From positions 9,671-73,670 of IMG/VR virus record IMGVR_UViG_3300042569_002607: a stretch of DNA of 64,000 nt; one strand, 5' to 3'. The position numbers and the translations under genes were made by a program. This document shows positions 25,421-51,817 of this stretch, one piece after another; positions within the stretch are counted from its first letter, which is position 1, and each line of letters opens with the position of its first letter. The notes under the pieces were generated by a model. The model made no database searches. It was not told the DNA's origin and saw only the letters and a list, made by a program, of their open reading frames with translations. Origin of the DNA: a virus.

Positions 25421-25492
25421 TATTGTGTGGCCAGCGCGGAGACACCACCTCCGGCACTGACGGCCCACTCCCATTTCCCGAGGATACACACC

Positions 25493-26548
25493 ATGGCTCA
25501 CGAACTCGACACCCGCGACAACGGCGCCGCCGCCTTCGTCTCCCTCCGCCAGTCCGCGTGGCACCAGCTCGGCACGATCGCCGCCGACGAAATGACATTC
25601 GACGAAGCGATGCATCTGGGCGGACTCGATTACCCGTTGGCCCTTCGTCCGCTCACCACGTCGCTGTCTATCGAAGGCGCGAACGGCGACGAAATCGATA
25701 CGCTCGCGATCGACGTCCCGGGACATCGCGCCGTAGTCCGCGCGGACCGGAATCTGGTGCTTGGCGTGGTCTCCGATCGCTACGAACTGGTGACGAATCG
25801 CGAGGCCATGCAGATGGTGGACGTGCTCGTGAATGACGGCCTCGCCGTGATCGAAACGGCGGGCGTGCTTCGCGAAGGCGCTGATGCGTGGATGGCGCTG
25901 CGCTTCACCGGTGAGCAGATCGACGCGGCTGGCGAGAACGGCGGCGACGAGATCAAGTTCTACGGGCTGGTTCGCACGAATCACAACGGCAAGGCCTCGG
26001 TTCAGGTCGCGACGACCCCCGTGCGGGTGGTGTGCGCGAATACACTGGCCATGGCGCTGGGCAACGGGCAGACGACGGTCCGCAGCGTGCTCCACATGGG
26101 GGCACAGGCACGGAACAAGGTGCGCGACGCGGCGCAGTCGCTGTGGTCCGGCACGTTGCAGGACGCCGAGAAGATGGCGGCGGCGTTTGCCACGATGCGC
26201 CGCACAAGCATTTCCGAAGCGCAGTTCGAAACCGCGGTACTCGATGTCCTCTGCCCCATGCCGGCCGAGCCGGACGCCGACGCGTCCAAGCTGGCCCACG
26301 CGCTGTTCCCGTCGCGCGTGCTGAAGGCCACCGAAACGCGCTTCCGCATTCAGGAACTGTGGATCAGCGGCACCGGCCAGCAGGGCGCGTGCACCGCGTG
26401 GGATGCCTATAACGCCTGCACGGAAGCGCTGGACCACTTCGACGCGGTGACCGTGAAGGGCGAGCGCCTGACGGCGCTCCTGCCGACGGGCAAGCTCGCG
26501 CAGCTGAAGGCCACCGTGTTCGATCGCCTGCTGTCGCTGGCCGTCTGA
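25493..26548 (+). CDS. DUF932 family protein
   Basis: AWHQLG, LGVVSDRY...N.E, TPVRVVCANTL and TAWDAYNA motifs; CCCGAGGA RBS. Confidence 0.9.
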   Translation: MAHELDTRDNGAAAFVSLRQSAWHQLGTIAADEMTFDEAMHLGGLDYPLALRPLTTSLSIEGANGDEIDTLAIDVPGHRAVVRADRNLVLGVVSDRYELVTNREAMQMVDVLVNDGLAVIETAGVLREGADAWMALRFTGEQIDAAGENGGDEIKFYGLVRTNHNGKASVQVATTPVRVVCANTLAMALGNGQTTVRSVLHMGAQARNKVRDAAQSLWSGTLQDAEKMAAAFATMRRTSISEAQFETAVLDVLCPMPAEPDADASKLAHALFPSRVLKATETRFRIQELWISGTGQQGACTAWDAYNACTEALDHFDAVTVKGERLTALLPTGKLAQLKATVFDRLLSLAV

Positions 26549-26555
26549 TGACCTC

Positions 26556-26593
26556 ACGCCGGCGCGGGACACCACCCCGCGCCGGCGTCTTTT
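26556..26593 (+). terminator. intrinsic terminator with ACACCAC loop
   Basis: Perfect 13-bp stem followed by CTTTT. Confidence 0.75.
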
Positions 26594-26615
26594 CCCCTCT
26601 CCCGAGATCCGCCCG

Positions 26616-26894
26616 ATGACCTGTCCCATTCCCGTGCGCCGCGCGACGCGTCGGCGCCCCAGTGTTCCCGCGACGTCCAGCCCGGCGTGCACGCTGCAGC
26701 GCATTACCGTCGTGATTCGGCTCGGTGACGTCGTTGTCACCGCGTGCCGCGTGGCGGGTGCGCGCTATGTCCTTTGCTTCGATCGCGGCGAGCGTCGGCC
26801 CCGATTTGTGACGATGCCACGCAAAACGCTCGCGACCATGCTTCGCTACGCGCGCCGCGTGGGGCTCCCGTCGCGCATTCTCGGGAGGGTGTGA
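26616..26894 (+). CDS. hypothetical basic protein
   Basis: ORF fills the operon gap. Confidence 0.45.
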   Translation: MTCPIPVRRATRRRPSVPATSSPACTLQRITVVIRLGDVVVTACRVAGARYVLCFDRGERRPRFVTMPRKTLATMLRYARRVGLPSRILGRV

Positions 26895-26896
26895 AT

Positions 26897-27268
26897 ATGC
26901 CCACCTTACAGGGAAACACGCTGCGGAGTGCATTGAGCCTCGCCGCGCAAGTCATGAGTGATCTGGACGGCGACCTGGCTTTTGCGCTGCATATCGCCAG
27001 CATCGGGCACGCCGCGATGACGGATATGCTGGCGGACGTCGTTCTTGCCGTCATCACCCGCGTGGTGGACGAGACGGGATCACTTGAGACGTATTGGGAG
27101 GGCATCGAGCATCGCGGGATTCCGCTCTACGAATGCGCGAACGCGATCGCGACCGTGATGCAGGACCGCGGGCTCAGTGACGCGGCGACGTTGGAAGCCG
27201 CTGCCATCGACGCGTGCCTGGCACTGCTCCAGCCGATCCCGACGGCGGAGGACCGGCACCATGGCTAA
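26897..27268 (+). CDS. small acidic hypothetical protein
   Basis: GGAGG RBS; overlaps next gene. Confidence 0.6.
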   Translation: MPTLQGNTLRSALSLAAQVMSDLDGDLAFALHIASIGHAAMTDMLADVVLAVITRVVDETGSLETYWEGIEHRGIPLYECANAIATVMQDRGLSDAATLEAAAIDACLALLQPIPTAEDRHHG

Positions 27269-27521
27269 ATGGTACGCAGGCTATCGCACAGCGCTCGGTC
27301 TCGAGAGTGAGCCGGTGGCGCATGACACGTGGTCCGACGCACGCACGTCGTTGCGAGACATCGCCCATGTGCAGCTCATGAGCGCCATATGCGCCGGGCG
27401 GGCTTCTGCGGTGCGCGAGATGGAGGCGGTGCTCGATGACGTCGACGCGTGCACGGCCGATGCAGAACACGAGTTCGAAGGGGAGGGGCTCACCTTCTTT
27501 CTGGAGGAGCGCGCCCCATGA
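27261..27521 (+). CDS. small acidic hypothetical protein
   Basis: GGAGG RBS; coupled to neighbours. Confidence 0.6.
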   Translation: MAKWYAGYRTALGLESEPVAHDTWSDARTSLRDIAHVQLMSAICAGRASAVREMEAVLDDVDACTADAEHEFEGEGLTFFLEERAP

Positions 27522-27907
27522 CGATCCTCCCGCCCGCGGGCGCGGTTCCGGCCGTTCCTTGCCCGTCTCCCGACACTTCTCCCGTTTCCCCTTCCCTACC
27601 TCCTTGCGCACCAGATGCGTCGGTTCACGGGGCCATTCCGCGGCGTATTGCGCCGGCCGCGCTTGACCGATTTATGACGGTGTACGAGCGGCAGCTCCGC
27701 GCGCTCGTTGTCCGGCCATCGCTCGGCTACGGCTTCACGCTCGACGAGGTCCCGCGCGTCGTCGCACGAATGCGCGAAGCCTTCCGCACGGGCACTTACA
27801 ACCGGAAGGGACATGCGCTCAACGGGACGTGCCGGAGTCTCGGGATCTCCACCTCGCGGCGGTCAATCGACGCGTACCTCAGCGGAGGGCGCGGTCATGG
27901 ACCATAA
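27518..27907 (+). CDS. hypothetical protein
   Basis: ATGA coupling; GGAGG RBS. Confidence 0.55.
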   Translation: MTILPPAGAVPAVPCPSPDTSPVSPSLPPCAPDASVHGAIPRRIAPAALDRFMTVYERQLRALVVRPSLGYGFTLDEVPRVVARMREAFRTGTYNRKGHALNGTCRSLGISTSRRSIDAYLSGGRGHGP

Positions 27908-28235
27908 CGATCCCGCCTTCAAGCAATGGCTCGTCAGCGTCTCGGCGGCCGCCGCGCGTGAGCTGGCCGACGTCGTCACGCGCCCGTGTAGTGTGGCCGT
28001 CGTGCGCCGTGCCGTGCGCGCGGCGCTGCAGGACGACGCCTGTCCGTCGGACATCCGTGGCGAGCTCGTGACACACCTGACGCGTCTGACGAACGCGAAC
28101 AAACCGGCGCGACGTGATGCGCCGGTGTTGGTGAAGTTCTCCGCCGAAGAAAAAGCGCGCGTGGCGGAGCGCGCCCGTGCCGCGAATGTCGCGGTGGCGA
28201 CCTATATCCGGGCCTGTGCCCTAGGAGAACTCTGA
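27897..28235 (+). CDS. C-terminal ribbon-helix-helix DNA-binding protein
   Basis: VLVKFSAEEKARV..RARAANV.VATYIR..AL RHH pattern. Confidence 0.7.
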   Translation: MDHNDPAFKQWLVSVSAAAARELADVVTRPCSVAVVRRAVRAALQDDACPSDIRGELVTHLTRLTNANKPARRDAPVLVKFSAEEKARVAERARAANVAVATYIRACALGEL

Positions 28236-28891
28236 TGCCCCCGCGTTCCCCCGCGAACAAGTTGAGACCGCCGATGCCACCAGCCTCACCGGAAACGGCA
28301 GCGCTTACAATGCAGATGGTCCCAACTCTGTCCCTGCAGCCAGCGCCGTGGAACCCGCGGCGCATCGCGCCAGATGCGCGACAACGGCTGCGGGCAGGCA
28401 TCGAACGGTTTGGCTTTGTACAACCCGTCATCGCGCGCGAGGAGGACCGCCTCATTGTTGGCGGACATCAACGTTGGGACATCGCCGTTGAACTGCAGCT
28501 GCCCACCGTACCCGTCATCTTTCTCGCCGGTCTGACGGACGCGCGTGCAAAAGCGCTGGCCGTGCTGCTCAACAACAAAGATGCCCAGGGAGAGTGGGAG
28601 ATGTCGTCGTTGACCGCTCTACTCGAGGAGCTTGCCGTGGATCCGCTGGAGGAGTTGCTGTCGGCGACTGGCTTCGAAGCGAGCTCGCTTGAAAAGCTGC
28701 TTGGGACTGGCGCGAGTGACGCGGCGGTGCTCACGCCGCTCGAAGTGCGGCCGCTCCCGAAGATGGTGTGGGTGCTGATCGGTGCGCCGTCTGGCCAGTA
28801 CGCCGATATCGCCGACCGCGTCCAAGAGATCGCGACCGTCTCGGGCATTCTGTGTGAGGTGGTGTCCAGTGACCACGGAGCGCCGGCGTGA
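28235..28891 (+). CDS. ParB/Srx N-terminal domain protein
   Basis: PAPWNPRRI, FGFVQPVI and IVGGHQR motifs. Confidence 0.85.
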   Translation: MPPRSPANKLRPPMPPASPETAALTMQMVPTLSLQPAPWNPRRIAPDARQRLRAGIERFGFVQPVIAREEDRLIVGGHQRWDIAVELQLPTVPVIFLAGLTDARAKALAVLLNNKDAQGEWEMSSLTALLEELAVDPLEELLSATGFEASSLEKLLGTGASDAAVLTPLEVRPLPKMVWVLIGAPSGQYADIADRVQEIATVSGILCEVVSSDHGAPA

Positions 28892-29535
28892 GCGGCACGG
28901 GCAAAGTCGACAACGACTACTTCGGCGCGAAGCTGGCGCTGCGTCGGTACTTCCTTCGCACCTACCACGCGGGGCAGACCACGAAGGTGTTCGATGCGTG
29001 CCAGGCGACAGGACAATTGTGGAAGACCCTGCGCCAGGAGTTCGCGGTCTCGTACTTCGGCGTGGATCGTACGCCGCAACCCGGACGCCTGCAGATCGAC
29101 TCGGCGCGAGTGCTGGCCACGCCCGGGTGGTCGTTCGACGTGATCGACGTCGATACCTACGGCGCTCCGTGGACGCACTGGGAACAGATTCTTCGGCATG
29201 GCCGCGCGCCGGTGTCGGTGTTTCTGACGATCGGTTCGACGATGTTCAACGGGAGCACCGACAACGTCGCGCTACGCGCGATTGGCCTCGGGCCGATCAT
29301 CAGCAAGATCCCGCCGTCGTTTCGCCGCCGGCTTGACGAACTTGGCGTAGATTATTGTCTGGCAATGAGTTACACTTACCGCTGGCGCGTGGTTGACGCA
29401 CAAGAGGCACCCCGTGGACGGTCTGCGCGGTACCTCGGTCTCCACTTGGTACCCGAGGCTGTCGGCACGTCCGTGCCAAACCCGCAAGCGACCGGACACC
29501 ACCCGGCGCCTGCGTCACCTTTCCCGAGGACCTGA
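28888..29535 (+). CDS. putative SAM-dependent methyltransferase-like protein
   Basis: Motif I-like VFDACQATG; FDVIDVDTYGAPW resembles the DxDPYG motif. Confidence 0.6.
   Translation: MSGTGKVDNDYFGAKLALRRYFLRTYHAGQTTKVFDACQATGQLWKTLRQEFAVSYFGVDRTPQPGRLQIDSARVLATPGWSFDVIDVDTYGAPWTHWEQILRHGRAPVSVFLTIGSTMFNGSTDNVALRAIGLGPIISKIPPSFRRRLDELGVDYCLAMSYTYRWRVVDAQEAPRGRSARYLGLHLVPEAVGTSVPNPQATGHHPAPASPFPRT
29472..29487 (-). repeat. dispersed 16-bp motif (exact)
   Basis: CGTGCCAAACCCGCAA upstream of DUF5131. Confidence 0.8.
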
Positions 29536-29537
29536 AC

Positions 29538-30428
29538 ATGGCAGAAGGCTCAATCATCGCGTGGACCAATCACACCCTGAACCCGTGGATGGGGTGTCTC
29601 AAGATCAGCGACGGCTGTAAGAACTGTTACGCCGACACGCTGGTCACCAATCGCATGAAGCTGAACGTGTGGGGGCCTGCCTCCACAACCACGCGTAAGG
29701 TGACCAGCGCCGCTATCTGGGCGAAGCCGCACAGCTGGAATCGCGCCGCCGCAAAGGCTGACGAGGAGACGTTTGTGTTCTGCGCGTCGCTCTGTGACGT
29801 CTTCGAAGATCATCCGGTCGCAGACGCCACGCGGCCACGTCTCTGGGACGTCATCCGCGCTACGCCGCATCTCACCTGGCAGCTCTTGACCAAACGTCCT
29901 GAGCGCATTGCGGCACACCTGCCAGCGGATTGGGGTGAGGGCTGGCCCCACGTGTGGCTCGGCACGTCGATCGAGGACATGCGCGTGGCGAGTCGCGCGG
30001 ATCATCTGCGCCGCGTGCCGGCGGTGGTGCGCTTCATCAGCTACGAGCCGGCGCTCGGCCCGCTCGACGATCTCAACCTGTCCGGCATCGATTGGGTTAT
30101 CTACGGCGGGGAGTCGGGACCCGGGTATCGAGCGCACGATCTCGCGTGGCCGCGCGTTATGCGCGATCGCTGTGCCGCGGAAGGCGTTGCCTTCTTCTTC
30201 AAGCAGTCGGCCGCGCCGCGCACCGAGATGGGCATTCGACTCGACGGAGAGTTGATCCGCCTCTGGCCAACGCCACGCACGGTGCAGCATCCGTCTTTTC
30301 CGGACTACCGACCAGCCAGCATTCGCCGCACCCCGCCGGATAAGGACTACTCCCCGCGCTACTCCACAACGACACCGGCGGAACCGCCGGCGCTCGGCGC
30401 CGAGATAGCGGAAGGGCTGCTGCTGTAG
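29538..30428 (+). CDS. DUF5131 (phage Gp37/Gp68) radical-SAM-like protein
   Basis: I.WT..T.NPW.GC.KIS.GC.NCYA, LLTKRPE, DWVIYGGESG and FFFKQ motifs. Confidence 0.92.
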   Translation: MAEGSIIAWTNHTLNPWMGCLKISDGCKNCYADTLVTNRMKLNVWGPASTTTRKVTSAAIWAKPHSWNRAAAKADEETFVFCASLCDVFEDHPVADATRPRLWDVIRATPHLTWQLLTKRPERIAAHLPADWGEGWPHVWLGTSIEDMRVASRADHLRRVPAVVRFISYEPALGPLDDLNLSGIDWVIYGGESGPGYRAHDLAWPRVMRDRCAAEGVAFFFKQSAAPRTEMGIRLDGELIRLWPTPRTVQHPSFPDYRPASIRRTPPDKDYSPRYSTTTPAEPPALGAEIAEGLLL

Positions 30429-30439
30429 CGGCGCACGCG

Positions 30440-30922
30440 ATGAACGCGCCGCCGTATCCCGAACCGGTGAACGCGCCACGCGAGAAGCGACCGGATGGGT
30501 CGGTGCTGCTCCATGCAGCGCCGCCCCTGCGTCGCTTTCCCATCGCGGAAGCCCCAGGCTTCGCCGTCGAAGTCACCGATCGCCCCGAGGCGGTCTACTT
30601 GCTGGGGAAACCTGACGGCTCGGAGATCCCGGTCCCGTGCCGGCTCTGTGGCACCTGGAACCCTGCCACCATCAGTGGTCGGCACTTCTTCTACGCGTGG
30701 GAACCGGACGTCGCGCTCGAGCTCACCAGCGTGCGCCGCGTGGAGTGCCTTATCGGCCGCCTGGCGTTTCCCAGCGGCTGGGCGGCGTCGCCGTGGTTCG
30801 CGAACACGTCGCGCCGTGCCCTGCTCCGCCAGTTGAGTGCATTCACCGCGGCATTCCTCGACGAACGCCTCACGAAGTCGGTGGCACTCATGCGCGCGGT
30901 CTCACGGCAAGACGCGCGATAG
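30440..30922 (+). CDS. hypothetical protein with CxxC
   Basis: 160 aa ORF. Confidence 0.5.
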   Translation: MNAPPYPEPVNAPREKRPDGSVLLHAAPPLRRFPIAEAPGFAVEVTDRPEAVYLLGKPDGSEIPVPCRLCGTWNPATISGRHFFYAWEPDVALELTSVRRVECLIGRLAFPSGWAASPWFANTSRRALLRQLSAFTAAFLDERLTKSVALMRAVSRQDAR

Positions 30923-30969
30923 CGTCCAGACTGGCGACGCCGGCTACGTGCGTCGCCTATCTTTATCTA

Positions 30970-31206
30970 ATGTCTCAACGATCCCCGAAGAAGCTGCGCA
31001 TTGCCGATGACACGCCACTGGGGCACCTGATTGGCGCCGAACTTCTCAGACCGCGAACCGTTACCGCGCTGACTCGCACGATGTGGACCGTGGGGCAGCT
31101 TCGCGCGTGGTGGCGAGATCACGAAGCCGGATCGGCCGCGGTGCTGCCCTGGGTCGGCCCGGCGGCGATGGACGACATTCGCCGCGCCATGCGTCGGATC
31201 GCATGA
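30970..31206 (+). CDS. small protein with HhH-like C-terminus
   Basis: LPWVGPAAMDDI. Confidence 0.4.
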   Translation: MSQRSPKKLRIADDTPLGHLIGAELLRPRTVTALTRTMWTVGQLRAWWRDHEAGSAAVLPWVGPAAMDDIRRAMRRIA

Positions 31207-31308
31207 CGCCAGCCCTCCCACGTTTCCGGTCGGTCTTCGTCCGCCGCAAGTGACGCGAAGCAGCGCTCGCGGGCGCGGCGCGGGATGCGCGGCCGGTGAC
31301 TTATCGCG

Positions 31309-31337
31309 TTGACAACATAGGGGTATGCCCCTATTTT
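31309..31337 (+). promoter_or_regulatory. sigma70 promoter with palindromic operator
   Basis: TTGACA-17bp-TATTTT; ATAGGGG-tatg-CCCCTAT at 31317-31334. Confidence 0.75.
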
Positions 31338-31403
31338 TATGGTGTCGGCGCGAGTGGCGCCGGCACGAACCGCCCACTGGGGCGCTGCCCCGAGGATACC
31401 GAG

Positions 31404-32015
31404 ATGACCGCTTTCTTTGCCGCCTACACCGACGCCATGATCTGCGCCGTCGGCACGTCGCCCGCCGAGGCCATCGCGACCGCTCGCCGCGAGATGCAGG
31501 AGCCGGACGCCGAGCTGGAGACGGCGCGCATTTCCGAGACGCTGGCCGCGTACATCGCCAGCGGTCACACGCCCCGCCGCTGGGACATCGTCGGCGGCTC
31601 GCTCATCGACACGACGCACGCCGATGCCGACGCCGATTTCGTGCGGTGCGACTCCGACGCGGGCGACGGCGGGTGGTCGCTCCACGCGCCGGACAGCACG
31701 GACGAGGATATTGCCGAGGGGCTCGCGCTCGAACTGGCCAGCGGCACCGGCAAGCCCACGCGGGAGGACTACGACCTCGCCCGGGCGCAGATGGCGAGCC
31801 CGGCCCGCGCGTCGACGTGGGCGCTTCGGCGCCTCGTCGCCGCCTCCGGCCTCACGCCGACCGAGCTGTCCCGCGTGCTGGGCCGCGATGACCGCACGAT
31901 GCGCCGCTGGCTGTCGGGGGAGCAGGACGTGCCCGACACGCTGGCGCAGCAGGTCGCGCGGCTCCGCGTCACGGCGGTGGACCCGGAGTGGGTCCACCTG
32001 ACGTATCGCCGCTGA
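31404..32015 (+). CDS. acidic N-terminal domains fused to C-terminal HTH
   Basis: D/E-rich N-terminus; GLTPTELSRVLGRDDRTMRRWLSGEQDVP HTH. Confidence 0.75.
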   Translation: MTAFFAAYTDAMICAVGTSPAEAIATARREMQEPDAELETARISETLAAYIASGHTPRRWDIVGGSLIDTTHADADADFVRCDSDAGDGGWSLHAPDSTDEDIAEGLALELASGTGKPTREDYDLARAQMASPARASTWALRRLVAASGLTPTELSRVLGRDDRTMRRWLSGEQDVPDTLAQQVARLRVTAVDPEWVHLTYRR

Positions 32016-32815: not shown

Positions 32816-32840
32816 CTAATTAGACGGTCAGTGTTATTAT
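32812..32840 (+). promoter_or_regulatory. sigma70 promoter
   Basis: TTGACT-17bp-TATTAT. Confidence 0.75.
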
Positions 32841-32911
32841 CATGATGTCGGGCGCAACGAGCGCTGACCAGTGGCGGGCCGCTGATTCGGTCCGGTAGCG
32901 CAGGAGCAACA

Positions 32912-33367
32912 ATGGAAGCTGTGTCCCTCCCCTCGTGGTGCCGCATTGTCCGGGAGACGTCGCCGGAGCTGGTGGCCGCGTTCGCCGCACGCCCGACAAT
33001 CGCCGGCCCGACGGATGCGGCCGCGTACCTCGCCCCGCGCCTCGTCGCTGAAGAGGTTGAGGTGTTTGCGGTCATGATGCTCGACGCACAGAACCGTGTC
33101 ATGGCGATGCACGAAGTCACGCGCGGGTTGGTAAACTCCTCGCTGGTCCATCCGCGTGAGGTGTTCCGGCTCGCGATTGCGGTCGGCGCGTCATCCATCA
33201 TCGTCGCGCACAATCACCCGAGCGGCGTGCTGACGCCGAGCCCGGAAGACATCGAGGTCACGCGCGCGCTCGTGGCCGCCGGCGAAGTGCTGGACATCCC
33301 CGTCCGCGATCACCTGATCATCGGCCTCAGTGGCCACCGGTCGCTGGCGTCGGACGGGTACATCTGA
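32912..33367 (+). CDS. radC: RadC-like JAB domain protein (JAB only)
   Basis: VHPREVF, AHNHPSG..TPS.ED and DHLIIG motifs. Confidence 0.92.
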   Translation: MEAVSLPSWCRIVRETSPELVAAFAARPTIAGPTDAAAYLAPRLVAEEVEVFAVMMLDAQNRVMAMHEVTRGLVNSSLVHPREVFRLAIAVGASSIIVAHNHPSGVLTPSPEDIEVTRALVAAGEVLDIPVRDHLIIGLSGHRSLASDGYI

Positions 33368-33441
33368 CGATCATCAGGCGCCGCCACAGTGGCGGCGCCC
33401 ATGCGGCTCCCCTCGCCGAATCCCTCACCGAGAGCACGATC

Positions 33442-33828
33442 ATGTCTGACGGACCTCCCATCACCTACAGCACGACGCACCCAGAGCCGAGGCGCACGGT
33501 CGATCACGCAGAGGCACCGCGTGTGCCGACTCCTGCGGCTCAGCAACGCCTGCGCGACCTCGTCAATGACCCGACGCCGAGCGGAGACACCAGGGGCTCC
33601 GCATTGCCGGCGCCGCATTCGGGGGCGCGATTTTCGCAGCGGCAGGCGGCGCGAAAGCTGCTGGCCGGACGCAGCTATCAGGCCGTGCAAGCGTGGCTGA
33701 GAGGCGAGCCCGTCCCGACCGCCACGGCCGAGTTCCTCGAGCACGACCTACAGCGCGTCGACGCGCGCCTCGAGGATCGGATGATCCGCATAGCCGAGGA
33801 CGAGATCGCGATTGTAGTGAAGCGGTAA
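33442..33828 (+). CDS. HTH protein
   Basis: FSQRQAARKLLAGRSYQAVQAWLRGEPVP. Confidence 0.6.
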   Translation: MSDGPPITYSTTHPEPRRTVDHAEAPRVPTPAAQQRLRDLVNDPTPSGDTRGSALPAPHSGARFSQRQAARKLLAGRSYQAVQAWLRGEPVPTATAEFLEHDLQRVDARLEDRMIRIAEDEIAIVVKR

Positions 33829-33926
33829 AGCGGCCAGAGTAACCTTCATAATCAGCTTTTGACGGTGGGACAAACGCCAGCGTAATTGTTGGAGAACAAC
33901 GCGTTAGCAGTTTTTACCTGTGGAGT

Positions 33927-34565
33927 ATGCAAGATTTTTGCAGAAATTCCGACATCATTTCCGAGGTGAAAGTGTCCCACGCAAAGAGCTGGTGTGAGGC
34001 GGTGCGGCAGGCGGAAGCGCTGTGGATCGACGCGATTATCGCTGCGGATGCACGACTGCCAATGGAGATTCGGCCTTTCCTGAACCTCAGCTTGGCGAAG
34101 CAGAATCTGTCGCACCTGATTCGGCGCGAGCTGATCCAGAGCGGCTTGCCCGTCGTGGCGCAGCCGTCCGGGAATTCCGATGTCGATTACTTCGTGCTGA
34201 AGGGGACGGCGGTAATCCGGGTGAAGGGCCTCAACAAGCAGGGAAGGCCGTCTAACTACGCGACAGATACCGCCCTGCAGTATCACCTTGGCGATGCGGT
34301 TGACAGCCTGCCGGATCTACCGCCGCTTCCGCGAGTCGATGTGTCGTACCATCTCGACGAGGTGCTCTTCGTGGTTCGCGCAGTGGAACTGCTCGAATGG
34401 CGAGAGAACCGCGCGGTTCGGCGCTACCAGTTGCCTGCGTTTGGGATGCCTCGGGAAATCGAGGTGGCCGAGGAGTTGCCGTTCGAAGTCGCGCCGGCGA
34501 CCATTCGCCCGAAGCGCGAGGAGATGAACCGTCGTCGTCGCGCGAGGCGCGAAGGAGAATCGTGA
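33927..34565 (+). CDS. hypothetical protein, partner of HTH-ImmA/IrrE
   Basis: Overlaps the start of the peptidase gene. Confidence 0.65.
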   Translation: MQDFCRNSDIISEVKVSHAKSWCEAVRQAEALWIDAIIAADARLPMEIRPFLNLSLAKQNLSHLIRRELIQSGLPVVAQPSGNSDVDYFVLKGTAVIRVKGLNKQGRPSNYATDTALQYHLGDAVDSLPDLPPLPRVDVSYHLDEVLFVVRAVELLEWRENRAVRRYQLPAFGMPREIEVAEELPFEVAPATIRPKREEMNRRRRARREGES

Positions 34566-35620
34566 ATAGGGTTCGGGTGAACGGGGAACTGTTGCAGCTG
34601 GCTCGCCAACGCGAAGGGCTGACGCAGACGATGCTTGCCGAGCTCAGTGGAGTTGGGAGTCCGCTGATCTCTCGCGTGGAATCGGGCCTCGTCACGCACC
34701 TGCCAGAGGAGTCCGCACGCAAGTTGGCTGACGCGACGCATGTGAGCGTGCGGTTTTTCGATAAAGACCCTACGGTGCGCCATCTCGGCTTCCATCGACT
34801 GTATCGTCTTCAGCGGAAAGTCGGCGTTCGCGCACTTGAGCGTCTTGAAAGCGAGATCAACGCACGTCGGCTTCACATAATCAGCCTGCTCAAGAAGTTC
34901 GACGTGGAACACGCGATGCCGTTGCCATCTCGCTCAGACTTTGAGGGCCTATCGCCGATGCAGGCCGCTCAGGAGATCCGCCGGATGTGGCTTGTAAAGC
35001 GCGGAGTCATCGGCCCCATCACGCCGTTACTCGAGGCGGCAGGCATTCTCGTTGTTGAGGTCGATGTTGCAGAAAAGGCATTCGAAGGACTGGCGGTTCA
35101 CGCCTTCGATGGCATTCCACTCGTTTTCGTTCGCAAGGGGCAAACCGCTGATCGGCGACGCTACACGCTCGCACATGAGCTGGCACACCTGCTGCTGCAT
35201 CAGTCGACGACAGAAGAACAGGAGAAAGAAGCCGAAGAGTTCGCGGCCGAGCTGATCATGCCCGAAGAATATGCTCGGAATCTGTTGGCAAACTTCACCA
35301 TCCAGAAGGCGCTGGAGCTCAAAGCTCGCTACCAGATATCCGTACAGTTCTGCATCATGCGCGCAGCACAACTCGAACTCATCGGAAAAGACGAGAAGAC
35401 GAGGCTGTTCAAGTATGTGTCCATGAAAGGCTGGCGGACCGAGGAACCGTATGCGATGCCTCCGGAACGACCGACCATCCTCAGTGACATTCTACGTTCA
35501 GTCATCAAGCAACTCGCCTATACGGTTGAAGAGCTCGCAGACGAGTTCGGCGAAACTCCAGATCGAGTGCGTGATTACTTCTTCACGGAAGATCAACCCA
35601 ATCGCCTCCGCTTGGTGTGA
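34562..35620 (+). CDS. XRE HTH fused to ImmA/IrrE (M78) metallopeptidase
   Basis: LARQREGLTQ..LA HTH; RRYTLAHELAH; EAEEFAAELIMP. Confidence 0.92.
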   Translation: MNRVRVNGELLQLARQREGLTQTMLAELSGVGSPLISRVESGLVTHLPEESARKLADATHVSVRFFDKDPTVRHLGFHRLYRLQRKVGVRALERLESEINARRLHIISLLKKFDVEHAMPLPSRSDFEGLSPMQAAQEIRRMWLVKRGVIGPITPLLEAAGILVVEVDVAEKAFEGLAVHAFDGIPLVFVRKGQTADRRRYTLAHELAHLLLHQSTTEEQEKEAEEFAAELIMPEEYARNLLANFTIQKALELKARYQISVQFCIMRAAQLELIGKDEKTRLFKYVSMKGWRTEEPYAMPPERPTILSDILRSVIKQLAYTVEELADEFGETPDRVRDYFFTEDQPNRLRLV

Positions 35621-35631
35621 GCCAAGAATCG

Positions 35632-35659
35632 AACGCCCCACCGTCACCGGTGGGGCGTT
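35632..35659. terminator. hairpin between convergent genes
   Basis: 12-bp perfect stem AACGCCCCACCG/CGGTGGGGCGTT. Confidence 0.7.
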
Positions 35660-35664
35660 TGCAT

Positions 35665-36141
35665 TCACGGCTCTGGCTGCTTTGCGGCGAACGTTTTAGC
35701 AACTAGCGCGTGGGTTCGAAAGACACACGTAATTTGAAAGGCCATGCGAGAAGACATTGTGCCGTACGATTTGAACTGTTTGGGTATCGAGAGTTGCCCG
35801 ATCAGGGCCTTTACATCATCGAATGAGTGGATCGAAATCGTGTGGGCGAACTTGTTCCGGATTTTGAAGATGGTCCTGAGCTCTTGATGCTCATCGTCAT
35901 CAATCAATCCAAAGGCGTGTGCGACCGTGAGATGCCGTGAAACTTGTTCTTCACACAGCGATCTAGCGGACGCGTTAGGCCTCGTGCTTGCGGCGATCAA
36001 TCGCGCAAGCTGATCCTCAATCTGGCCGGCCAGCAGAATGGCCACCTCGCGATCGCTAAGAACGTTCCACGCATTGAAGCGGGTGTTCATTTCGGCGACC
36101 TGCTCAAGCAAGTCCCTTTCTTTCGAAGGCACCTCAGTCAT
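35665..36141 (-). CDS. MtlR-like / HEPN-fold protein
   Basis: SDREVAIL...IED.L..LI; FGLID; KIRNKFAH (Rx4H). Confidence 0.7.
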   Translation of the reverse strand: MTEVPSKERDLLEQVAEMNTRFNAWNVLSDREVAILLAGQIEDQLARLIAASTRPNASARSLCEEQVSRHLTVAHAFGLIDDDEHQELRTIFKIRNKFAHTISIHSFDDVKALIGQLSIPKQFKSYGTMSSRMAFQITCVFRTHALVAKTFAAKQPEP

Positions 36142-36449
36142 AGCGGCGCCCACCTCGTCACCGCCCCAATCCACTTCCGCCCCGTCCCGCTGTCGTCATT
36201 CCACGTGACGATCACCTTGCACGCCCACGGCCCGGGACCCTGCAGGATGCGCAGCGCCGTCCGTTCGCCACGGCCGAGCGACGCGGGGAGCTCTCCGGCG
36301 AGCAGCTCCGAGACGTCGTCGCCGTTGTGCTCGAGTGTGCACCGCAGCTGCACCGCAGTGTCATCACCAGTGTTCTCGATCACCAGCTGGCGACGGTGTC
36401 CGGCTCCATCGGGGCGCGCGGAGAGGGCGGCGGATTTGCCGAAGGGCAT
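36138..36449 (-). CDS. hypothetical protein
   Basis: Coupled to neighbours. Confidence 0.5.
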   Translation of the reverse strand: MPFGKSAALSARPDGAGHRRQLVIENTGDDTAVQLRCTLEHNGDDVSELLAGELPASLGRGERTALRILQGPGPWACKVIVTWNDDSGTGRKWIGAVTRWAPL

Positions 36450-36451
36450 GG

Positions 36452-36700
36452 CTAGCGGATGTGCACGGTCTCAACCCAACCACAGTGGCGATTGGGACAC
36501 GTAACCACTGCTGACCGTAGCCCGACCGGTACAAGCGATCCGCGGGGGGCCGCGATCGCCTCCCATGTTGTCTCACAGCTCTCGCACTCGACGGTGGCAC
36601 TCAGAATGGGACCGGTCAAAGGACGGGAGCCCATCGGTGATCGGCTGATCAGATTCGACGCGATCTGTTTGAAGCGCACGTTTCGAAGATTAAAGGCCAT
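36452..36700 (-). CDS. Zn-ribbon protein
   Basis: CESC and CPNRHC; GGAG RBS. Confidence 0.55.
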   Translation of the reverse strand: MAFNLRNVRFKQIASNLISRSPMGSRPLTGPILSATVECESCETTWEAIAAPRGSLVPVGLRSAVVTCPNRHCGWVETVHIR

Positions 36701-36761
36701 TGCCGCTCCTGATATCGAGAAGGTGTTTCACGTGCATTCCGCGCATGGACGTTTCGGGGGG

Positions 36762-37154
36762 TTAGCGACCTAGGCATTTTGTCCGGTACTGATTAAACCG
36801 AGCTTCGGCCGACGTCCCCGCCGCGCCTTTTTCCGTGATGACATCACCGCGACGGCCAGCGAATGATTCAAATCCGGTATAGGCGCCGAAGGAGTTTCGC
36901 GCGTTGAACTCGCCGCACACATAGAACACGGAATCAGACTCGGCCGACACGATGCCTTGCCATTGCACGGAACTCGGGTCCTTCATGCGACTTGCGAGTT
37001 CGTCTTTGACCATCTGTTCGGCCACCGGCTGCCGGTAGCGCTCGCGCGTTTCCTCCTCGCTGGGCCCCAGCGCACAGAATCCGGCGACCAGGAGAAGCAC
37101 GACGAGGATCGTCCCCCCGCATCCGACTTGAAACGCCTTTCCAACAGTTGACAC
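36762..37154 (-). CDS. membrane-anchored protein (possible superinfection exclusion)
   Basis: AGGAGG RBS, TM helix, KDPSS...VCGEFNARNSFGAYTG motif. Confidence 0.65.
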   Translation of the reverse strand: MSTVGKAFQVGCGGTILVVLLLVAGFCALGPSEEETRERYRQPVAEQMVKDELASRMKDPSSVQWQGIVSAESDSVFYVCGEFNARNSFGAYTGFESFAGRRGDVITEKGAAGTSAEARFNQYRTKCLGR

Positions 37155-37268
37155 AGTCTCCCTCCTTCGAATGGGTAACTTCCCACAGATTTCCACACCG
37201 TCGCGAGCTTGCCGCGTCCCACAATTGCGGCTGTCAGATCAGCCCGCCATACTCCGGCAACCCCAAAA

Positions 37269-37595
37269 ATGCCCCGAATGGTGAAGCCGTCCGCGACCTG
37301 CTATTTCCGTCTTGAGCGCCCAATGCGCTTCCCCATCGCCGGCGAGGCTGGGGACTTCTTGGCCGTGATGCCGCCGGCCTTCCGTGAGAACCTCTGGATG
37401 CTGCAGGCGGAGTCGCTGTGGGTCATTCGCCGCCGCGCGTTTGAGGAAGGGAAGCTGTGGTCCATGCTGAACGACAAGGTCGACGATGGCACACTCACTT
37501 TGCTGCACGCTCCTGGTCGTCGGTTTTTAGGTCATCTGGTCGAATCTGGGCAGCTGTCGACTGCTCAAGCGCTTCGGGTGTTACGGGCGGGGTAG
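37269..37595 (+). CDS. hypothetical protein
   Basis: ORF convergent with and overlapping the repressor 3' end. Confidence 0.45.
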   Translation: MPRMVKPSATCYFRLERPMRFPIAGEAGDFLAVMPPAFRENLWMLQAESLWVIRRRAFEEGKLWSMLNDKVDDGTLTLLHAPGRRFLGHLVESGQLSTAQALRVLRAG

Positions 37596-37947
37596 CCTTT
37601 CGCTCGCCAGAGGCGTCGACCGGCGCGCGCATCGACTCTGCGATGGACGCGAGGCGCGCCGCGAGATCAACCGCGTATCCACGCGCTTCCTCGACACGCC
37701 CACGCCAGTAGTCGAGACTCTCAGAGCCCGTGACCAACAGCGCGTTCACCAGCGTTCCCGGCTCGAGCTCGTACGCTCGCTCTACGACGGACAAGGTTTC
37801 GTCCTCAAGTGGCAGACCACCGGTTTCCCAGTTGTACACCGTTTGTCGCGTCTTCCCGGACGCTCTGACAATGTCCGGAATGCTCTTGCCAGACTGTATG
37901 CGCGTCGACTGAAGAAAATGGCCGGCTCGCTGTCGGAGTAGTGTCAA
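37495..37947 (-). CDS. CI-like HTH repressor (start uncertain)
   Basis: SGKSIPDIVRASGKTRQTVYNWETG HTH; divergent from cro-like gene; no S24 domain seen. Confidence 0.7.
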   Translation of the reverse strand: MTLLRQRAGHFLQSTRIQSGKSIPDIVRASGKTRQTVYNWETGGLPLEDETLSVVERAYELEPGTLVNALLVTGSESLDYWRGRVEEARGYAVDLAARLASIAESMRAPVDASGERKATPPVTPEALEQSTAAQIRPDDLKTDDQERAAK

Positions 37948-37991
37948 ATTTATACTTGACAGTTGACAATGCACGGCTGTACACTTGTAAA
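37942..37991. promoter_or_regulatory. immunity switch promoter/operator region
   Basis: TGTCAA-N8-TTGACA palindrome, second TTGACA at 37963, TACACT at 37980, AT-rich. Confidence 0.7.
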
Positions 37992-38036
37992 GCGCCTGTT
38001 TAACAGGTGGATGCCAGTCGCTTTACATGAGGATGT

Positions 38037-38318
38037 ATGCCCCGACACCAGTCTCCCGCCAAGCGCGCGACCGGAAAGAAGAAGCGGTCTCTCCCATGGA
38101 GTGGACCCATTCCGCTTGGTCCCATGTCGCTCCGGCTTGCCGCCAAGATCATTGGCGGCGTGAACTCCTATGGAGTGATGCGGTTGATCGCCGAAGGAGA
38201 ATTGAGCGGCCAGAAGGTGCACAACACCGCCGGTGGCCATGCCCTCCAGGTTTTGGGGGAGTCGGTGGCCGCCTACGTGGCCAGGCGTGAGGCCGCGCCG
38301 CAGCGCGGTATCGCGTGA
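38037..38318 (+). CDS. Cro/excisionase-like DNA-binding protein
   Basis: MSLRLAAKIIG...VMRLIAEGEL (Xis/MerR-like HTH); GAGG RBS. Confidence 0.6.
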   Translation: MPRHQSPAKRATGKKKRSLPWSGPIPLGPMSLRLAAKIIGGVNSYGVMRLIAEGELSGQKVHNTAGGHALQVLGESVAAYVARREAAPQRGIA

Positions 38319-38320
38319 TC

Positions 38321-38797
38321 TCACGTCTTTCGTCCCCGTTCGCTGGCGCGGATGGCGCGCAGCGTCCTCCCGCTGATCTCCACACCATCCGGTGTGGTCT
38401 CCGGCCGCAGCAGGCAATCGGCCGGGATCTCGGGCGGCACGGCGCCAGAGAGGCGGCCATACGTCACCCAGCCGGGATCGACGGTCAGCCCGAAGTCCAC
38501 GCGAGCCCACTGCACCAGCGCCATGATCAGATCGGGGGTCCAGCGCCGATGCGAGCGCACCAGCCGCGAAACGGTCGTGTACGACTGGATGCTCTGCGAG
38601 TCGACGTAGGCATTGAGCCCTTCGGCGACCACCGGATGGCTCAGGTGCGGGGTCTCGCGCGGCAAGTCGGCCCGCTGATCCAGCAACGACAAGACCAATC
38701 GGGCGCGGTTCGCCATCGCCAACTGCAGCGGGCTGGAGCTCCGCAGCGATTCGGAGGCGCCGTACTTCTTTCCGGACGGGCGGGATGTCGTAGCCAT
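38321..38797 (-). CDS. HTH-like protein
   Basis: IQSYTTVSRL...VDPGWVTYG XRE-like pattern. Confidence 0.5.
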   Translation of the reverse strand: MATTSRPSGKKYGASESLRSSSPLQLAMANRARLVLSLLDQRADLPRETPHLSHPVVAEGLNAYVDSQSIQSYTTVSRLVRSHRRWTPDLIMALVQWARVDFGLTVDPGWVTYGRLSGAVPPEIPADCLLRPETTPDGVEISGRTLRAIRASERGRKT

Positions 38798-39012
38798 GGG
38801 CAAACGCTCGGGACGTGTGGTGGTAGTCAGCTCCTACGCGGTACCCCTTCGCTCCGCACGATCAACGCCGGGACGATAGCGCACGGCCCCGGGTTGCGAT
38901 CTCCGCAAGGAGTTCGCCGCGCATGGACGTTTCAGCAGGGGCTGACGAGCGGAATATGTCGCGCGGGTGCGCAATCCGACAGGCGGAACGCCGCGCGGAT
39001 GCGCCAACGCAA

Positions 39013-39040
39013 AGCGGCAGGAGCCGAGGCCCCTGCCGCT
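39013..39040 (-). terminator. putative terminator hairpin
   Basis: AGCGGCAGG/CCTGCCGCT stem with a short A-run on its left. Confidence 0.45.
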
Positions 39041-39184
39041 GCGACCACCGCACCACACGGTGGATTTGTTTGCGCGCTCCCGAGGACGAATCCCCCACGC
39101 GCTCTCACAAAGTAGGCAGTCCCCCCCTGTGGCGCCAGACCACCACATCGGCGCGACACTCCTTCCCACAATCCCGAGGACCTG

Positions 39185-49688: not shown

Positions 49689-49799
49689 CTCTACACGTCC
49701 CACCTCACACCACTCCGAGATCCCGATGACGACGTTTCACGAGTTTCTGCAAACCACAGCGCCCACGACACGCGATACGCGCTACGTGGAGGTCCTGGC

Positions 49800-51473: not shown

Positions 51474-51556
51474 GCAGACACATTATTGCGCAGGACGCTC
51501 CACCGCGCGGGACATGCCACCACCGTGATCCGCGTCGACCCTTCTCCCGAGTCGCA

Positions 51557-51817
51557 ATGCCTATGACCTCCGAGCGTGCCAAACCCGCATTCTCACACCG
51601 CGCCGACGGTGTGCTCTCCGACGAGAGCGCGGCGGTGACCTTAGCCGAGTTTGAGCGCTGGCGCTCCCTCGCGGGCGTTGGCGCGCCCGTCCAGTTTCCG
51701 CAGGCGCTTGGGGTCGCACTCCTCGATCTCGCGATTGCCGAGCTCCGCGCGTATCGCGCTCAGGCGGCGCTGTCCGCCATCGTGCGCGGCGAAGCGCGAC
51801 CGACCACGGTGCCATAG
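51557..51817 (+). CDS. hypothetical protein
   Basis: ORF after motif-containing intergenic region. Confidence 0.5.
   Translation: MPMTSERAKPAFSHRADGVLSDESAAVTLAEFERWRSLAGVGAPVQFPQALGVALLDLAIAELRAYRAQAALSAIVRGEARPTTVP
51575..51590 (-). repeat. dispersed 16-bp motif (1 mismatch, inverted)
   Basis: CGTGCCAAACCCGCAT; forms an inverted pair with 51458. Confidence 0.75.

What the first reader, a model, noticed from the sequence alone, without database searches (positions are those of the whole stretch)
25437..39154. Hairpins with identical ACACCAC loop but different, fully compensated stems
Seen: CGGAG-ACACCAC-CTCCG (25437-25453, DUF932 leader); a 13-bp terminator stem with ACACCAC loop (26556-26588); CCGG-ACACCAC-CCGG with an extendable stem (29488-29509, DUF5131 leader); and a looser GCGCC.GA-CCACCACA-TC.GGCGC (39132-39154, Sak4 leader). 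The leader copies precede a CCCGAGGA RBS, and two lie just downstream of a reverse copy of the 16-mer. A conserved loop on varying stems is the signature of a protein-recognised hairpin (as with lambda boxB). Inference: a phage antitermination or translational-control element; its presence in a terminator loop suggests regulated read-through into the small-gene cluster.
Basis: partly seen in the sequence, partly recalled or inferred. Interest (0 to 1): 0.7.

Follow-up and report, generated by a model that had tools for sequence, protein, structure and literature searches.

The report
Phage leader hairpins with CACCAC loop
About six early genes of an uncultured lake-water Gemmatimonas phage, and of its two known relatives, are preceded by small RNA hairpins that all show the letters CACCAC in the loop while their stems differ but stay paired, which marks a new and still uncharacterised gene-control signal.

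Summary
The window is part of a 73.7 kb temperate siphovirus; its closest protein relatives are named Gemmatimonas sp. It carries six sense-strand hairpins with CACCAC in a 7-8 nt loop: the four reported, plus 39045-39063 and 51504-51537. Each is followed by 12-23 nt of C/U-rich spacer and a (C)CCGAG(GA) Shine-Dalgarno box. Two further leaders carry unpaired CACCAC beside that box.

Two relatives (G003, 48.6 kb; G404, 75 kb) have hairpins at orthologous leaders. CACCAC is invariant in all 15 copies, while the stems are rebuilt with compensating changes. A covariance model trained without G404 finds two of its copies at 23-24 bits. Controls gave one such hit in 1.54 Mb.

There is no Rfam match, boxA, phage RNA polymerase, complement in host-class 16S rRNA, or recognisable RNA-binding domain.

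Best reading (about 0.45): a cistron-specific leader RNA operator, bound at the loop by an unidentified protein that controls translation or mRNA stability of the early, non-structural genes. Nut/put-like antitermination (about 0.2) and a factor-free leader structure are not excluded. The "terminator loop" is not conserved: in G003 the terminator and the CACCAC hairpin are separate. The closest architectural analogue is the SAS/ESAS of Cluster K mycobacteriophages.

The parts
25437..25453 (+). Hairpin 1: CGGAG-ACACCAC-CTCCG in the DUF932 leader. It is nested in an outer helix 25427-25468 and lies about 10 nt after the predicted start of a TTGCGC-N17-TATCCT promoter.
   Evidence: The ortholog in G003 is GCAGCGU-CCACCAC-GCGCUGC with conserved flanks.
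25477..25495 (+). CCCGAGGA box (25477-25484) and the ATG of DUF932 (25493).
26556..26588 (+). Hairpin 2: 13 bp stem with ACACCAC loop, -30 kcal/mol, then CUUUUCC. It is terminator-like and starts 8 nt after the DUF932 stop codon.
   Evidence: In G003 a separate terminator (loop ATAC) is followed by GCGUCGU-CCACCAC-GCGCCGC.
26601..26894 (+). CCCGAGA box (26601-26607) and a 92 aa ORF (26616-26894, Arg-rich N-terminus) with a coding GC3 signal.
   Evidence: The C-terminal half of the ORF is seen again in the read-through tail of P0002.
29484..29513 (+). Hairpin 3: core CCGG-ACACCAC-CCGG (29492-29506) with an extended bulged stem, in the DUF5131 leader. It starts 5 nt after the reverse 16-mer (29472-29487).
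   Evidence: The G003 ortholog is CCGU-UCACCAC-ACGG.
29523..29540 (+). CCCGAGGA box and the ATG of DUF5131 (29538). In this genome the upstream ORF (28888-29535) runs 24 codons past its homology, through the 16-mer, the hairpin and the SD.
39045..39086 (+). 'Startless' module: CCACCG-CACCACA-CGGTGG, then AUUUG..., then CCCGAGGA (39079-39086), with no start codon at SD distance.
   Evidence: It is conserved in G003 (CCCAGC-CACCACA-GCCGGG) and in G404 (CCGCCC-CACCACA-GAGCGG).
39132..39187 (+). Hairpin 4: GCGCC(A)GA-CCACCACA-UCGGCGC (39132-39154), a C/U-rich spacer, CCCGAGGA (39173-39180) and the ATG of the Sak4-like AAA_24 gene (39185).
   Evidence: The G003 ortholog is CGUCGCG-UCACCAC-CGCGGCG. 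G404 has CACCACACCAC in a 29 nt loop closed by GCUAC/GUAGC.
51504..51559 (+). Hairpin 5: CAUG-CCACCAC-CGUG inside a longer stem (51504-51537). It starts 31 nt after the end of a forward 16-mer (51458-51473) and is followed by CCCGAG and an ATG at 51557.
   Evidence: The G404 counterpart is GUGUCGUG-CCACCAC-CGCGACGC behind a 16-mer.
49707..49728 (+). Unpaired ACACCAC one base before CCGAGAUCCCG-ATG. It starts 19 nt after the end of a forward 16-mer (49673-49688).
58244..58269 (+). Unpaired ACACCAC three bases before CCCGAG...ATG (58267).

Best explanation
SHOWN: This is a family of sense-strand stem-loops in the 5' leaders of early, non-structural genes. Each displays an invariant CACCAC in a 7 nt (once 8 nt) loop on stems of 4-13 bp. 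The stems differ between copies and between orthologs but stay complementary. In the window each hairpin is followed by a G-poor C/U-rich spacer of 12-23 nt (9-23 nt across the three genomes) and a conserved (U)CCCGAGGA box that contains the Shine-Dalgarno core GAGG, usually 5-10 nt before an ATG.

INFERRED: The element works as RNA. It is a cistron-specific operator in which the single-stranded CACCAC is read by a trans-acting RNA-binding factor. That factor may be phage- or host-encoded and is not identified. Bound 25-50 nt upstream of the start codon, at the edge of the 30S platform, it would repress or enhance translation initiation and/or change mRNA stability. This would tie about six early operons (DUF932, a small basic ORF, DUF5131, the Sak4-SSB-exonuclease operon and others) into one post-transcriptional regulon.
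For: 1. Structure under selection. Twelve NCACCAC hairpins from three genomes are 86% paired over 7 bp, against 49.5% after shuffling and 29-46% with slid partners. There are 29 cells changed on both sides, and all 7 pairs covary (the 10-copy version is).

2. Orthologous leaders.
- DUF932: the flanks are conserved, yet 4 of 5 stem pairs are replaced.
- DUF5131: G-C becomes U-A.
- Sak4 and post-DUF932: new stems in each genome.
- The startless module has three different stems in three genomes.

3. Loop conservation. CACCAC has no change in 15 hairpin copies.

4. Independent recovery.
- Model R1, trained on G000 and G003, scores two G404 copies at 23.9 and 23.1 bits.
- 1.54 Mb of unrelated GC-rich contigs gave one hit at or above 23 bits.
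- The next hit inside the two training genomes is 17.5 bits.
- A scan of all IMG/VR for CACCAC-N-TCCCGAGGA-N-ATG returned G404 as the only new contig with a true module.

5. Strand and place. All copies are on the coding strand. None lie in the structural-gene arm. All are in leaders, and they precede non-homologous genes in different genomes.

6. Cistron-level logic.
- Two copies lie 1.1 kb apart in one transcription direction.
- Two copies sit in tandem in the Sak4 leader.
- Four or five leaders have unpaired CACCAC 1-4 nt from the SD.

7. The CCCGAGGA box is conserved beyond its 4 nt match to the host-class anti-SD.

8. A third lineage, inferred from protein only. The read-through tail of P0002 (Gemmatimonas sp.) encodes R-A-V-H-H-T-A-R. 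All six fixed codon positions of the implied stem are complementary around N+CAYCAY.
Against: - No RNA-binding domain was recognised in about 85 ORFs, so no partner is identified.
- There are no expression data, since no RNA run holds the phage.
- The hairpins lie upstream of the SD rather than over it, so occlusion of the ribosome is not obvious.
- One conserved module has no start codon behind it.
- One G404 copy lacks a good SD.
- Only three genomes were available as DNA, and the paralogous copies were partly chosen because they fold. The ortholog comparisons and the G404 test are free of that bias.
- A model built from the five G000 copies alone ranks only two G003 copies at the top.
- The tail of one more distant relative (P0117) does not show an obvious CACCAC in the DUF5131 leader.
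Confidence: 0.45

Rival explanations
1. Nut- or put-like processive antitermination. The nascent leader hairpin, alone or with an N-like protein, modifies host RNA polymerase soon after initiation, so that it reads through terminators inside the early operons.
For: - The hairpins lie about 10-15 nt after the predicted starts of a TTGCGC-N17-TATCCT promoter and of the 16-mer sites.
- A strong terminator-like hairpin follows DUF932 in both genomes.
- The startless module shows that a start codon is not required.
- The ORF after site 2 is small, basic and Arg-rich at its N-terminus.
- From general knowledge, lambda boxB is the classic conserved-loop hairpin.
Against: - There is more than one copy per transcription unit: 25442 and 26569, and a tandem pair before Sak4.
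- In G003 a copy lies after the terminator it would have to overcome.
- Spacing to the SD is constrained, and unpaired CACCAC abuts the SD in other leaders.
- No lambda or rrn boxA was found.
- The Arg-rich ORF has no homolog in G003 or G404.
- Few terminator-like sites lie in 24.9-31.5 kb.
Confidence: 0.2
2. A factor-independent leader architecture. A 5'-proximal hairpin protects the mRNA from 5'-end-dependent decay or acts as a ribosome standby platform. The C/A-rich loop and spacer are kept only because they cannot pair with the GAGG core. This would be a CA-rich translational enhancer.
For: - The leaders are G-poor and C/A/U-rich throughout, and CACCAC also occurs unpaired.
- The hairpins lie near the predicted 5' ends.
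- No binding protein was found.
Against: - A purely structural or compositional role does not explain six invariant loop letters in 15 copies while the stems turn over.
- It does not explain the use of a thermodynamically poor 7 nt loop.
- No GUGGUG is available in host-class 16S rRNA for direct pairing.
Confidence: 0.2
3. A DNA-level signal: a hairpin extruded in single-stranded or supercoiled DNA, acting as a hairpin promoter (as in phage N4), a priming or ssi site, or a nicking site.
For: The element is strand-specific, with a conserved loop on variable stems. From general knowledge, this is also typical of N4 virion-polymerase promoters and of HUH-nuclease sites.
Against: - No phage RNA polymerase, Rep/HUH or primase domain was found. 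The phage is a temperate siphovirus with an integrase and sigma-like proteins.
- The strict position before SD boxes and start codons has no rationale for a replication signal.
Confidence: 0.07
4. No function of its own: remnants of one duplicated promoter-leader cassette, or chance.
For: - The modules look like copies of one cassette.
- ACACCAC is only mildly over-represented.
- The leader composition favours C/A words.
Against: - The stems have diverged almost completely, yet pairing and the loop are kept across three genomes whose proteins are only 35-85% identical.
- The control rate is one hit in 1.54 Mb.
Confidence: 0.05

Closest known systems
Start-associated sequences and extended SAS (SAS/ESAS) of Cluster K mycobacteriophages (Pope et al. 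2011, PMC3203893)
   Same: - A phage-specific, one-orientation conserved box that embeds the SD core a few bases before ATG.
- It is confined to non-structural genes and precedes unrelated gene families.
- About half the sites carry an inverted repeat immediately upstream.
- The function is unknown, and the authors suspect translation initiation through a host or phage factor.
   Different: - In ESAS the 17 bp arms are conserved in sequence and the spacer varies. Here the arms vary and the loop is invariant.
- The box differs: CCCGAGGA against GGGATAGGAGCCC, which is absent here.
- The host phylum differs.
Lambda-type nut sites (boxA + boxB) bound by N protein
   Same: A short hairpin in early leaders, recognised through its loop, present in several copies per phage (general knowledge).
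   Different: - boxB has a 5 nt GNRA-like loop, and its stems are the same at nutL and nutR.
- There are two sites per genome, with boxA alongside.
- Here the loop is a 7 nt CACCAC, there are at least six sites, there is no boxA, and the sites sit at SD distance.
Coat-protein or translational-operator hairpins (MS2/PP7 replicase operator; T4 gp43 operator)
   Same: A variable stem with specific loop bases read by one protein, which controls translation initiation (general knowledge).
   Different: - Those hairpins contain or abut the SD or AUG of a single gene.
- Here the hairpin lies 12-23 nt upstream of the SD, and there are about six target genes.
CsrA/RsmA binding sites (GGA in hairpin loops plus GGA at the SD)
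   Same: - A short single-stranded word shown in hairpin loops and also unpaired next to the SD.
- Several sites per leader.
- Regulon-wide post-transcriptional control (general knowledge).
   Different: - The word is CACCAC, not ANGGA.
- The module was not seen in the host-class genomes searched.
HK022 put RNA
   Same: A leader RNA structure just downstream of early promoters that acts in cis (general knowledge).
   Different: - put is a roughly 70 nt two-stem structure present twice per genome.
- It has no relation to SD boxes and shows no sequence likeness.
- No Rfam family of any kind matched the window.

Membership tests
Lambda-type nut site | boxB hairpin with a 5 nt purine-rich (GNRA-like) loop | tested here: not met
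   The loops are 7 nt N-CACCAC, CACCACA at the startless module, or CCACCACA at one site.
Lambda-type nut site | boxA (CGCTCTTA, or TGCTCTTTAACA in rrn) next to the hairpin | tested here: not met
   There is no exact lambda boxA in any of the three genomes. The rrn-boxA-like words found (up to 2 mismatches) are far from the hairpins.
Lambda-type nut site | A phage N-like protein with an arginine-rich motif | tested here: inconclusive
   The 92 aa ORF 26616-26894 has an Arg-rich N-terminus, but it has no homolog in G003 or G404 and no Pfam hit.
Lambda-type nut site | Terminator read-through that depends on the site | not testable with these tools
   This needs Term-seq or reporter assays. No RNA run holds the phage.
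Any described RNA family (Rfam 15) | A covariance-model match at the gathering score | tested here: not met
   There are no matches in the 64 kb window. Only chance-level hits appear in 25300-29600 at E up to 5.
SAS/ESAS of Cluster K mycobacteriophages | The 13 bp box GGGATAGGAGCCC 3-7 bp before start codons | tested here: not met
   No sense-strand copy with up to 2 mismatches is present in any of the three genomes. The box here is (T)CCCGAGGA.
SAS/ESAS of Cluster K mycobacteriophages | Conserved 17 bp inverted-repeat arms with a variable spacer | tested here: not met
   The arms vary and the loop is invariant. The comparison is.
Intrinsic terminator (site 2 only) | A GC-rich stem followed by a U-tract | tested here: inconclusive
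   The stem is 13 bp at -30 kcal/mol, but only 4 U follow it. The consensus scan does not call it. G003 has a separate terminator hairpin at the same place.
Sigma-70-type or phage promoter made of CACCAC and CCGAGG | Fixed spacing between the two elements | tested here: not met
   The spacing from the start of CACCAC to CCGAGG varies from 27 to 35 nt.

The most novel reading that the evidence does not exclude
The CACCAC heptaloop is the operator of a previously unknown RNA-binding regulator, either a phage ORF of unknown fold or a Gemmatimonadota host factor. This regulator would time a whole set of early, anti-defence and recombination operons after transcription. It would be a new RNA-protein recognition pair and the first regulatory circuit described for phages of Gemmatimonadota.
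Probability: 0.35. Interest if true: 0.65.

Novelty: new variant of a known kind. Interest (0 to 1): 0.55.

Why it matters
Phages of Gemmatimonadota have not been cultured, and nothing is known about how they regulate their genes. This element is a clean, comparatively supported cis-signal that links about six early operons: DUF932, the ParB-N/methyltransferase-like/DUF5131 group, Sak4-SSB-exonuclease and several small ORFs.

If a protein reads the loop, it defines a new hairpin-protein pair, which could serve as an orthogonal tag or switch. It would also give a handle on the timing of early and anti-defence genes. It is a mirror image of the unexplained SAS/ESAS system of Cluster K mycobacteriophages, which suggests that SD-linked phage-specific leader codes are more widespread than is recognised.

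Tried and rejected
- DNA searches of the phage collection (megablast and blastn) found no relatives.
- The metagenome and genome-contig scans gave only distant DUF932 loci at 30-38% identity, without the module.
The DNA of the closest relatives (P0001 at 92% and P0002 at 89%, both named Gemmatimonas sp., and P0004-P0008) could therefore not be fetched.
- DUF932 was searched in 401 genomes of the class reached through a Longimicrobium locus. No close prophage was found in those searched.
- The pattern CACCAC-N-TCCCGAGGA was searched in the same 401 genomes. The hits look like coding sequence (for example inside ruvB) and none forms a hairpin module. The unpublished genomes G021, G025 and G032 appear only in that tally, and G002 served only as a handle.
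- Loop pairing with 16S rRNA was tested. There is no GUGGUG in three 16S genes of the class.
- Sequencing runs: no RNA holder is listed. The laid contigs of four lake or freshwater runs showed no listed differences at the hairpins, but the tables were truncated, so this was not usable.
- The model built from G000 only (R2) was too weak to recover all G003 copies.
- C-terminal tails of methyltransferase-like homologs, read as proxies for the DUF5131 leader, were uninformative or lacked a clear CACCAC (P0117, P0120).
- An upstream ORF behind the startless module was considered. There is no conserved start or frame in G003.
- L234 and L257 look like the module but come from unrelated phages.
- Two literature searches timed out. 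One search on CACCAC found nothing relevant.

Full report
WHAT THE WINDOW IS

The window is bases 9671-73670 of a 73,670 bp virus record. It has 65% G+C, and nearly all genes lie on the + strand. Pfam identifies these genes:
- a tape-measure-like protein and tail proteins;
- an integrase, SSB, an exonuclease and a DnaB-like helicase;
- RadC and an Acb3-like protein;
- HTH proteins and two proteins with sigma-70 region 4.

This is a temperate siphovirus with no RNA polymerase of its own. The closest DUF932 proteins in the large protein collection are named Gemmatimonas sp. (92% and 89% identity), and one lies on a 4.79 Mb contig. The phage DNA is held by lake-water metagenome runs.

THE OBSERVATION

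All four hairpins are present as described. Three small corrections apply:
- The fourth hairpin has a one-sided bulge.
- Site 2 is followed by CCCGAGA, not CCCGAGGA.
- Site 2 has only four U after the stem, so the consensus scan does not call it a terminator.

- 39045-39063, CCACCG-CACCACA-CGGTGG, followed by CCCGAGGA with no start codon behind it;
- 51504-51537, CAUG-CCACCAC-CGUG inside a longer stem, starting 31 nt after the end of a forward 16-mer.

The common anatomy in the window is: hairpin (stem 4-13 bp, loop 7 nt, once 8 nt), then 12-23 nt of G-poor C/U-rich spacer, then (U)CCCGAG(GA), then 5-10 nt, then ATG. Across all three genomes the spacer ranges from 9 to 23 nt.

The word ACACCAC alone is hardly over-represented (12 against 7.2 expected). 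However, 4 of the 40 sense-strand NCACCAC words are closed by at least 4 bp, where about 1 is expected. CCCGAGGA is about four-fold enriched.

RELATIVES

DNA searches of the phage collection found nothing. Protein-guided scans of IMG/VR found one relative, G003 (IMGVR_UViG_3300047678_000368, 48.6 kb, collinear, proteins 33-85% identical). A pattern scan of all IMG/VR for CACCAC-N12-32-TCCCGAGGA-N5-10-ATG returned 69 stretches. Apart from G003, the only one with a true module was G404 (IMGVR_UViG_3300048597_000457). G404 is 75,163 bp, has direct terminal repeats, and is syntenic with proteins 29-77% identical. Look-alikes in L234 and L257 belong to unrelated phages.

ORTHOLOGOUS LEADERS

| Leader | G000 | G003 | G404 |
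|---|---|---|---|
| DUF932 | CGGAG-ACACCAC-CUCCG | GCAGCGU-CCACCAC-GCGCUGC | no DUF932 match |
| DUF5131 | CCGG-ACACCAC-CCGG | CCGU-UCACCAC-ACGG | not compared |
| Sak4 | GCGCC(A)GA-CCACCACA-UCGGCGC | CGUCGCG-UCACCAC-CGCGGCG | CACCACACCAC in a 29 nt loop closed by GCUAC/GUAGC |
| After DUF932 | 13 bp stem with ACACCAC loop | terminator (loop AUAC), then GCGUCGU-CCACCAC-GCGCCGC 10 nt later | none (no DUF932) |
| Startless module | CCACCG/CGGUGG | CCCAGC/GCCGGG | CCGCCC/GAGCGG |
| After the 30440-gene ortholog | none seen | CGGCGAG-ACACCAC-CUCGCCG | CCGAG-UCACCAC-CUCGG |
| 16-mer then hairpin | CAUG-CCACCAC-CGUG | not found | GUGUCGUG-CCACCAC-CGCGACGC |

In the DUF932 leader the promoter-like TTGCGC-N17-TATCCT and both flanks of the hairpin are conserved. 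The startless module always has the loop CACCACA and is followed by AUUUG... and CCCGAGGA.

The small genes behind several modules are not homologous between genomes, so the module is portable.

A further lineage can be read only indirectly. P0002 is a frameshifted DUF932 whose tail translates the intergenic region as ...R-A-V-H-H-T-A-R-G...L-L-P-R-P. That corresponds to CGN GCN GUN CAY CAY ACN GCN CGN. All six fixed positions of this stem are complementary around a loop of N+CAYCAY, and a possible CCCGAGG follows. This is an inference from protein sequence, because the third codon positions are unknown.

NUMBERS AND CONTROLS

- Over the 12 NCACCAC hairpins, a 7 bp stem is 85.7% paired, against 49.5% in shuffles (0 of 500 shuffles reached the observed value) and 29-46% with slid partners. 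All 7 pairs change on both sides, in 29 cells (the 10-copy version is).
- Caveat: the paralogous copies were partly picked because they fold. The weight therefore rests on the ortholog comparisons and on the next test.
- Model R1, built from G000 and G003, separates its 10 training copies (23.6-31.1 bits) from everything else in those genomes (next hit 17.5 bits).
- R1 finds one hit at or above 23 bits in 1.54 Mb of unrelated GC-rich contigs.
- R1 finds two copies at 23.9 and 23.1 bits in the untrained 75 kb G404. Both are on the coding strand and in leaders.
- A model built from the five G000 copies alone is weaker. It ranks two G003 copies first (E about 0.01) and loses the others in noise.
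- CACCAC is unchanged in all 15 hairpin copies.

WHAT IT IS NOT

- It matches no Rfam family.
- No lambda or rrn boxA is present, and no SAS box.
- It is not a two-hexamer promoter, because the CACCAC-to-CCGAGG spacing runs from 27 to 35 nt.
- It is not an N4-type hairpin promoter or a replication signal. No phage RNA polymerase, Rep or primase domain was found, and every copy sits before an SD box.
- It does not pair with 16S rRNA. Three 16S genes of the class lack GUGGUG, and their 3' end is GGAUCACCUCCUUUCU. CCCGAGGA therefore offers only GAGG to the anti-SD, so the box is conserved beyond what the SD requires.
- It is not a host-wide motif as far as tested. Hits to CACCAC-N-TCCCGAGGA in 401 genomes of the class look like coding sequence (for example ruvB), and none forms a module.

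HOW IT MOST LIKELY WORKS

Three features point to a single-stranded function, and to RNA in particular: compensated stems, strict sense-strand orientation, and position inside leaders.

Several features fit a cistron-level operator better than a once-per-operon antitermination site:
- A copy lies before each regulated cistron. This includes two copies 1.1 kb apart with no evident promoter between them, and one copy that lies after a terminator in G003.
- Copies sit in tandem in the Sak4 leader.
- The distance to the SD is constrained.
- Some leaders have unpaired CACCAC touching the SD.

I therefore favour (about 0.45) a leader operator whose loop is read by an unidentified protein that tunes translation or mRNA stability of the early genes. 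The two main rivals are about 0.2 each:
- Nut/put-like antitermination. It is helped by the promoter-proximal position, the startless module and the small Arg-rich ORF after site 2. It is hurt by the points listed above, by the absence of boxA, and by that ORF's absence from the relatives.
- A factor-free role as a 5' stabiliser, standby site or CA-rich enhancer. This does not explain an invariant six-letter loop.

No RNA-binding domain was recognised among about 85 ORFs.

COMPARISON WITH WHAT IS KNOWN

The closest architectural analogue is the SAS/ESAS system of Cluster K mycobacteriophages. It also has a phage-specific SD-embedding box, an upstream inverted repeat, restriction to non-structural genes and an unknown function. 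The conservation logic is opposite: in ESAS the arms are conserved and the spacer varies, and the sequences differ. Functionally the element resembles boxB, the MS2/PP7 operators or CsrA sites, but it meets the defining features of none of them. I rate it a new variant of a known kind, that is, a loop-specific regulatory hairpin in phage leaders.

LIMITS

- Only three genomes were available as DNA.
- There are no RNA data.
- The laid contigs were uninformative at the hairpins.
- Two literature searches failed.

Noticed in passing
window 29472-29487, 46969, 49673, 51458, 51575; variant TTGCGCTTTTGGCACG at 14656 and at genome positions 2976 and 6013: The 16-mer TTGCG(G/C)(G/T)TTTGGCACG recurs at operon boundaries in G000, G003 and G404. 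In four leaders it lies 5-43 nt upstream of a CACCAC element. It does not have the sigma-54 arrangement (TGGCAC-N5-TTGC), and it could be the site of one of the phage's sigma-like or HTH proteins.
   Followed up: partly
window 29464-29477: The palindrome GGCACG-TC-CGTGCC overlaps the reverse 16-mer in front of the DUF5131 hairpin. It looks like an operator.
   Followed up: no
window 28888-29535: The methyltransferase-like ORF runs 24 codons past the end of its homology. The G003 ortholog stops at a TAG after 194 aa. The extra codons run through the 16-mer, the hairpin and the SD of DUF5131, so the annotated C-terminus is probably fortuitous read-through of a regulatory region.
   Followed up: yes
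P0002 (protein collection; Gemmatimonas sp., 4.79 Mb contig): This DUF932 homolog is 89% identical, is frameshifted near its end, and reads through the intergenic module into the next ORF. It indicates a prophage of this phage group in a Gemmatimonas chromosome, which assigns the host, and it is a possible pseudogene or assembly error.
   Followed up: partly
window 25391-25419: A promoter-like TTGCGC-N17-TATCCT is conserved base for base between G000 and G003 upstream of DUF932. The consensus sigma-70 scan misses it.
   Followed up: partly
window 39079-39086 and all CCCGAGGA boxes: The conserved octamer offers only GAGG to the anti-SD (CCUCC) of Gemmatimonadetes 16S rRNA. One copy has no start codon behind it, so the box probably does more than act as an SD.
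   Followed up: partly
window ORFs between 12.3 and 63.8 kb (exact member not resolved): Pfam hits include Acb3 (CBASS inhibitor, E 5.9e-72), a RadC-like JAB domain, an M78 peptidase with HTH, and two proteins with sigma-70 region 4 (one at 17763-18320).
   Followed up: no
window 26616-26894: This is a 92 aa basic ORF with an Arg-rich N-terminus and an HTH-like C-terminus, directly behind hairpin 2. Its coding GC3 signal is good. It has no homolog in G003 or G404, but its C-terminal half recurs in the tail of P0002.
   Followed up: partly
G404 (L270-L273), whole record: This is a complete 75 kb relative with direct terminal repeats. It lacks a DUF932 match and has its DUF5131 gene at a different place, yet it keeps the 16-mers and the CACCAC modules.
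   Followed up: partly
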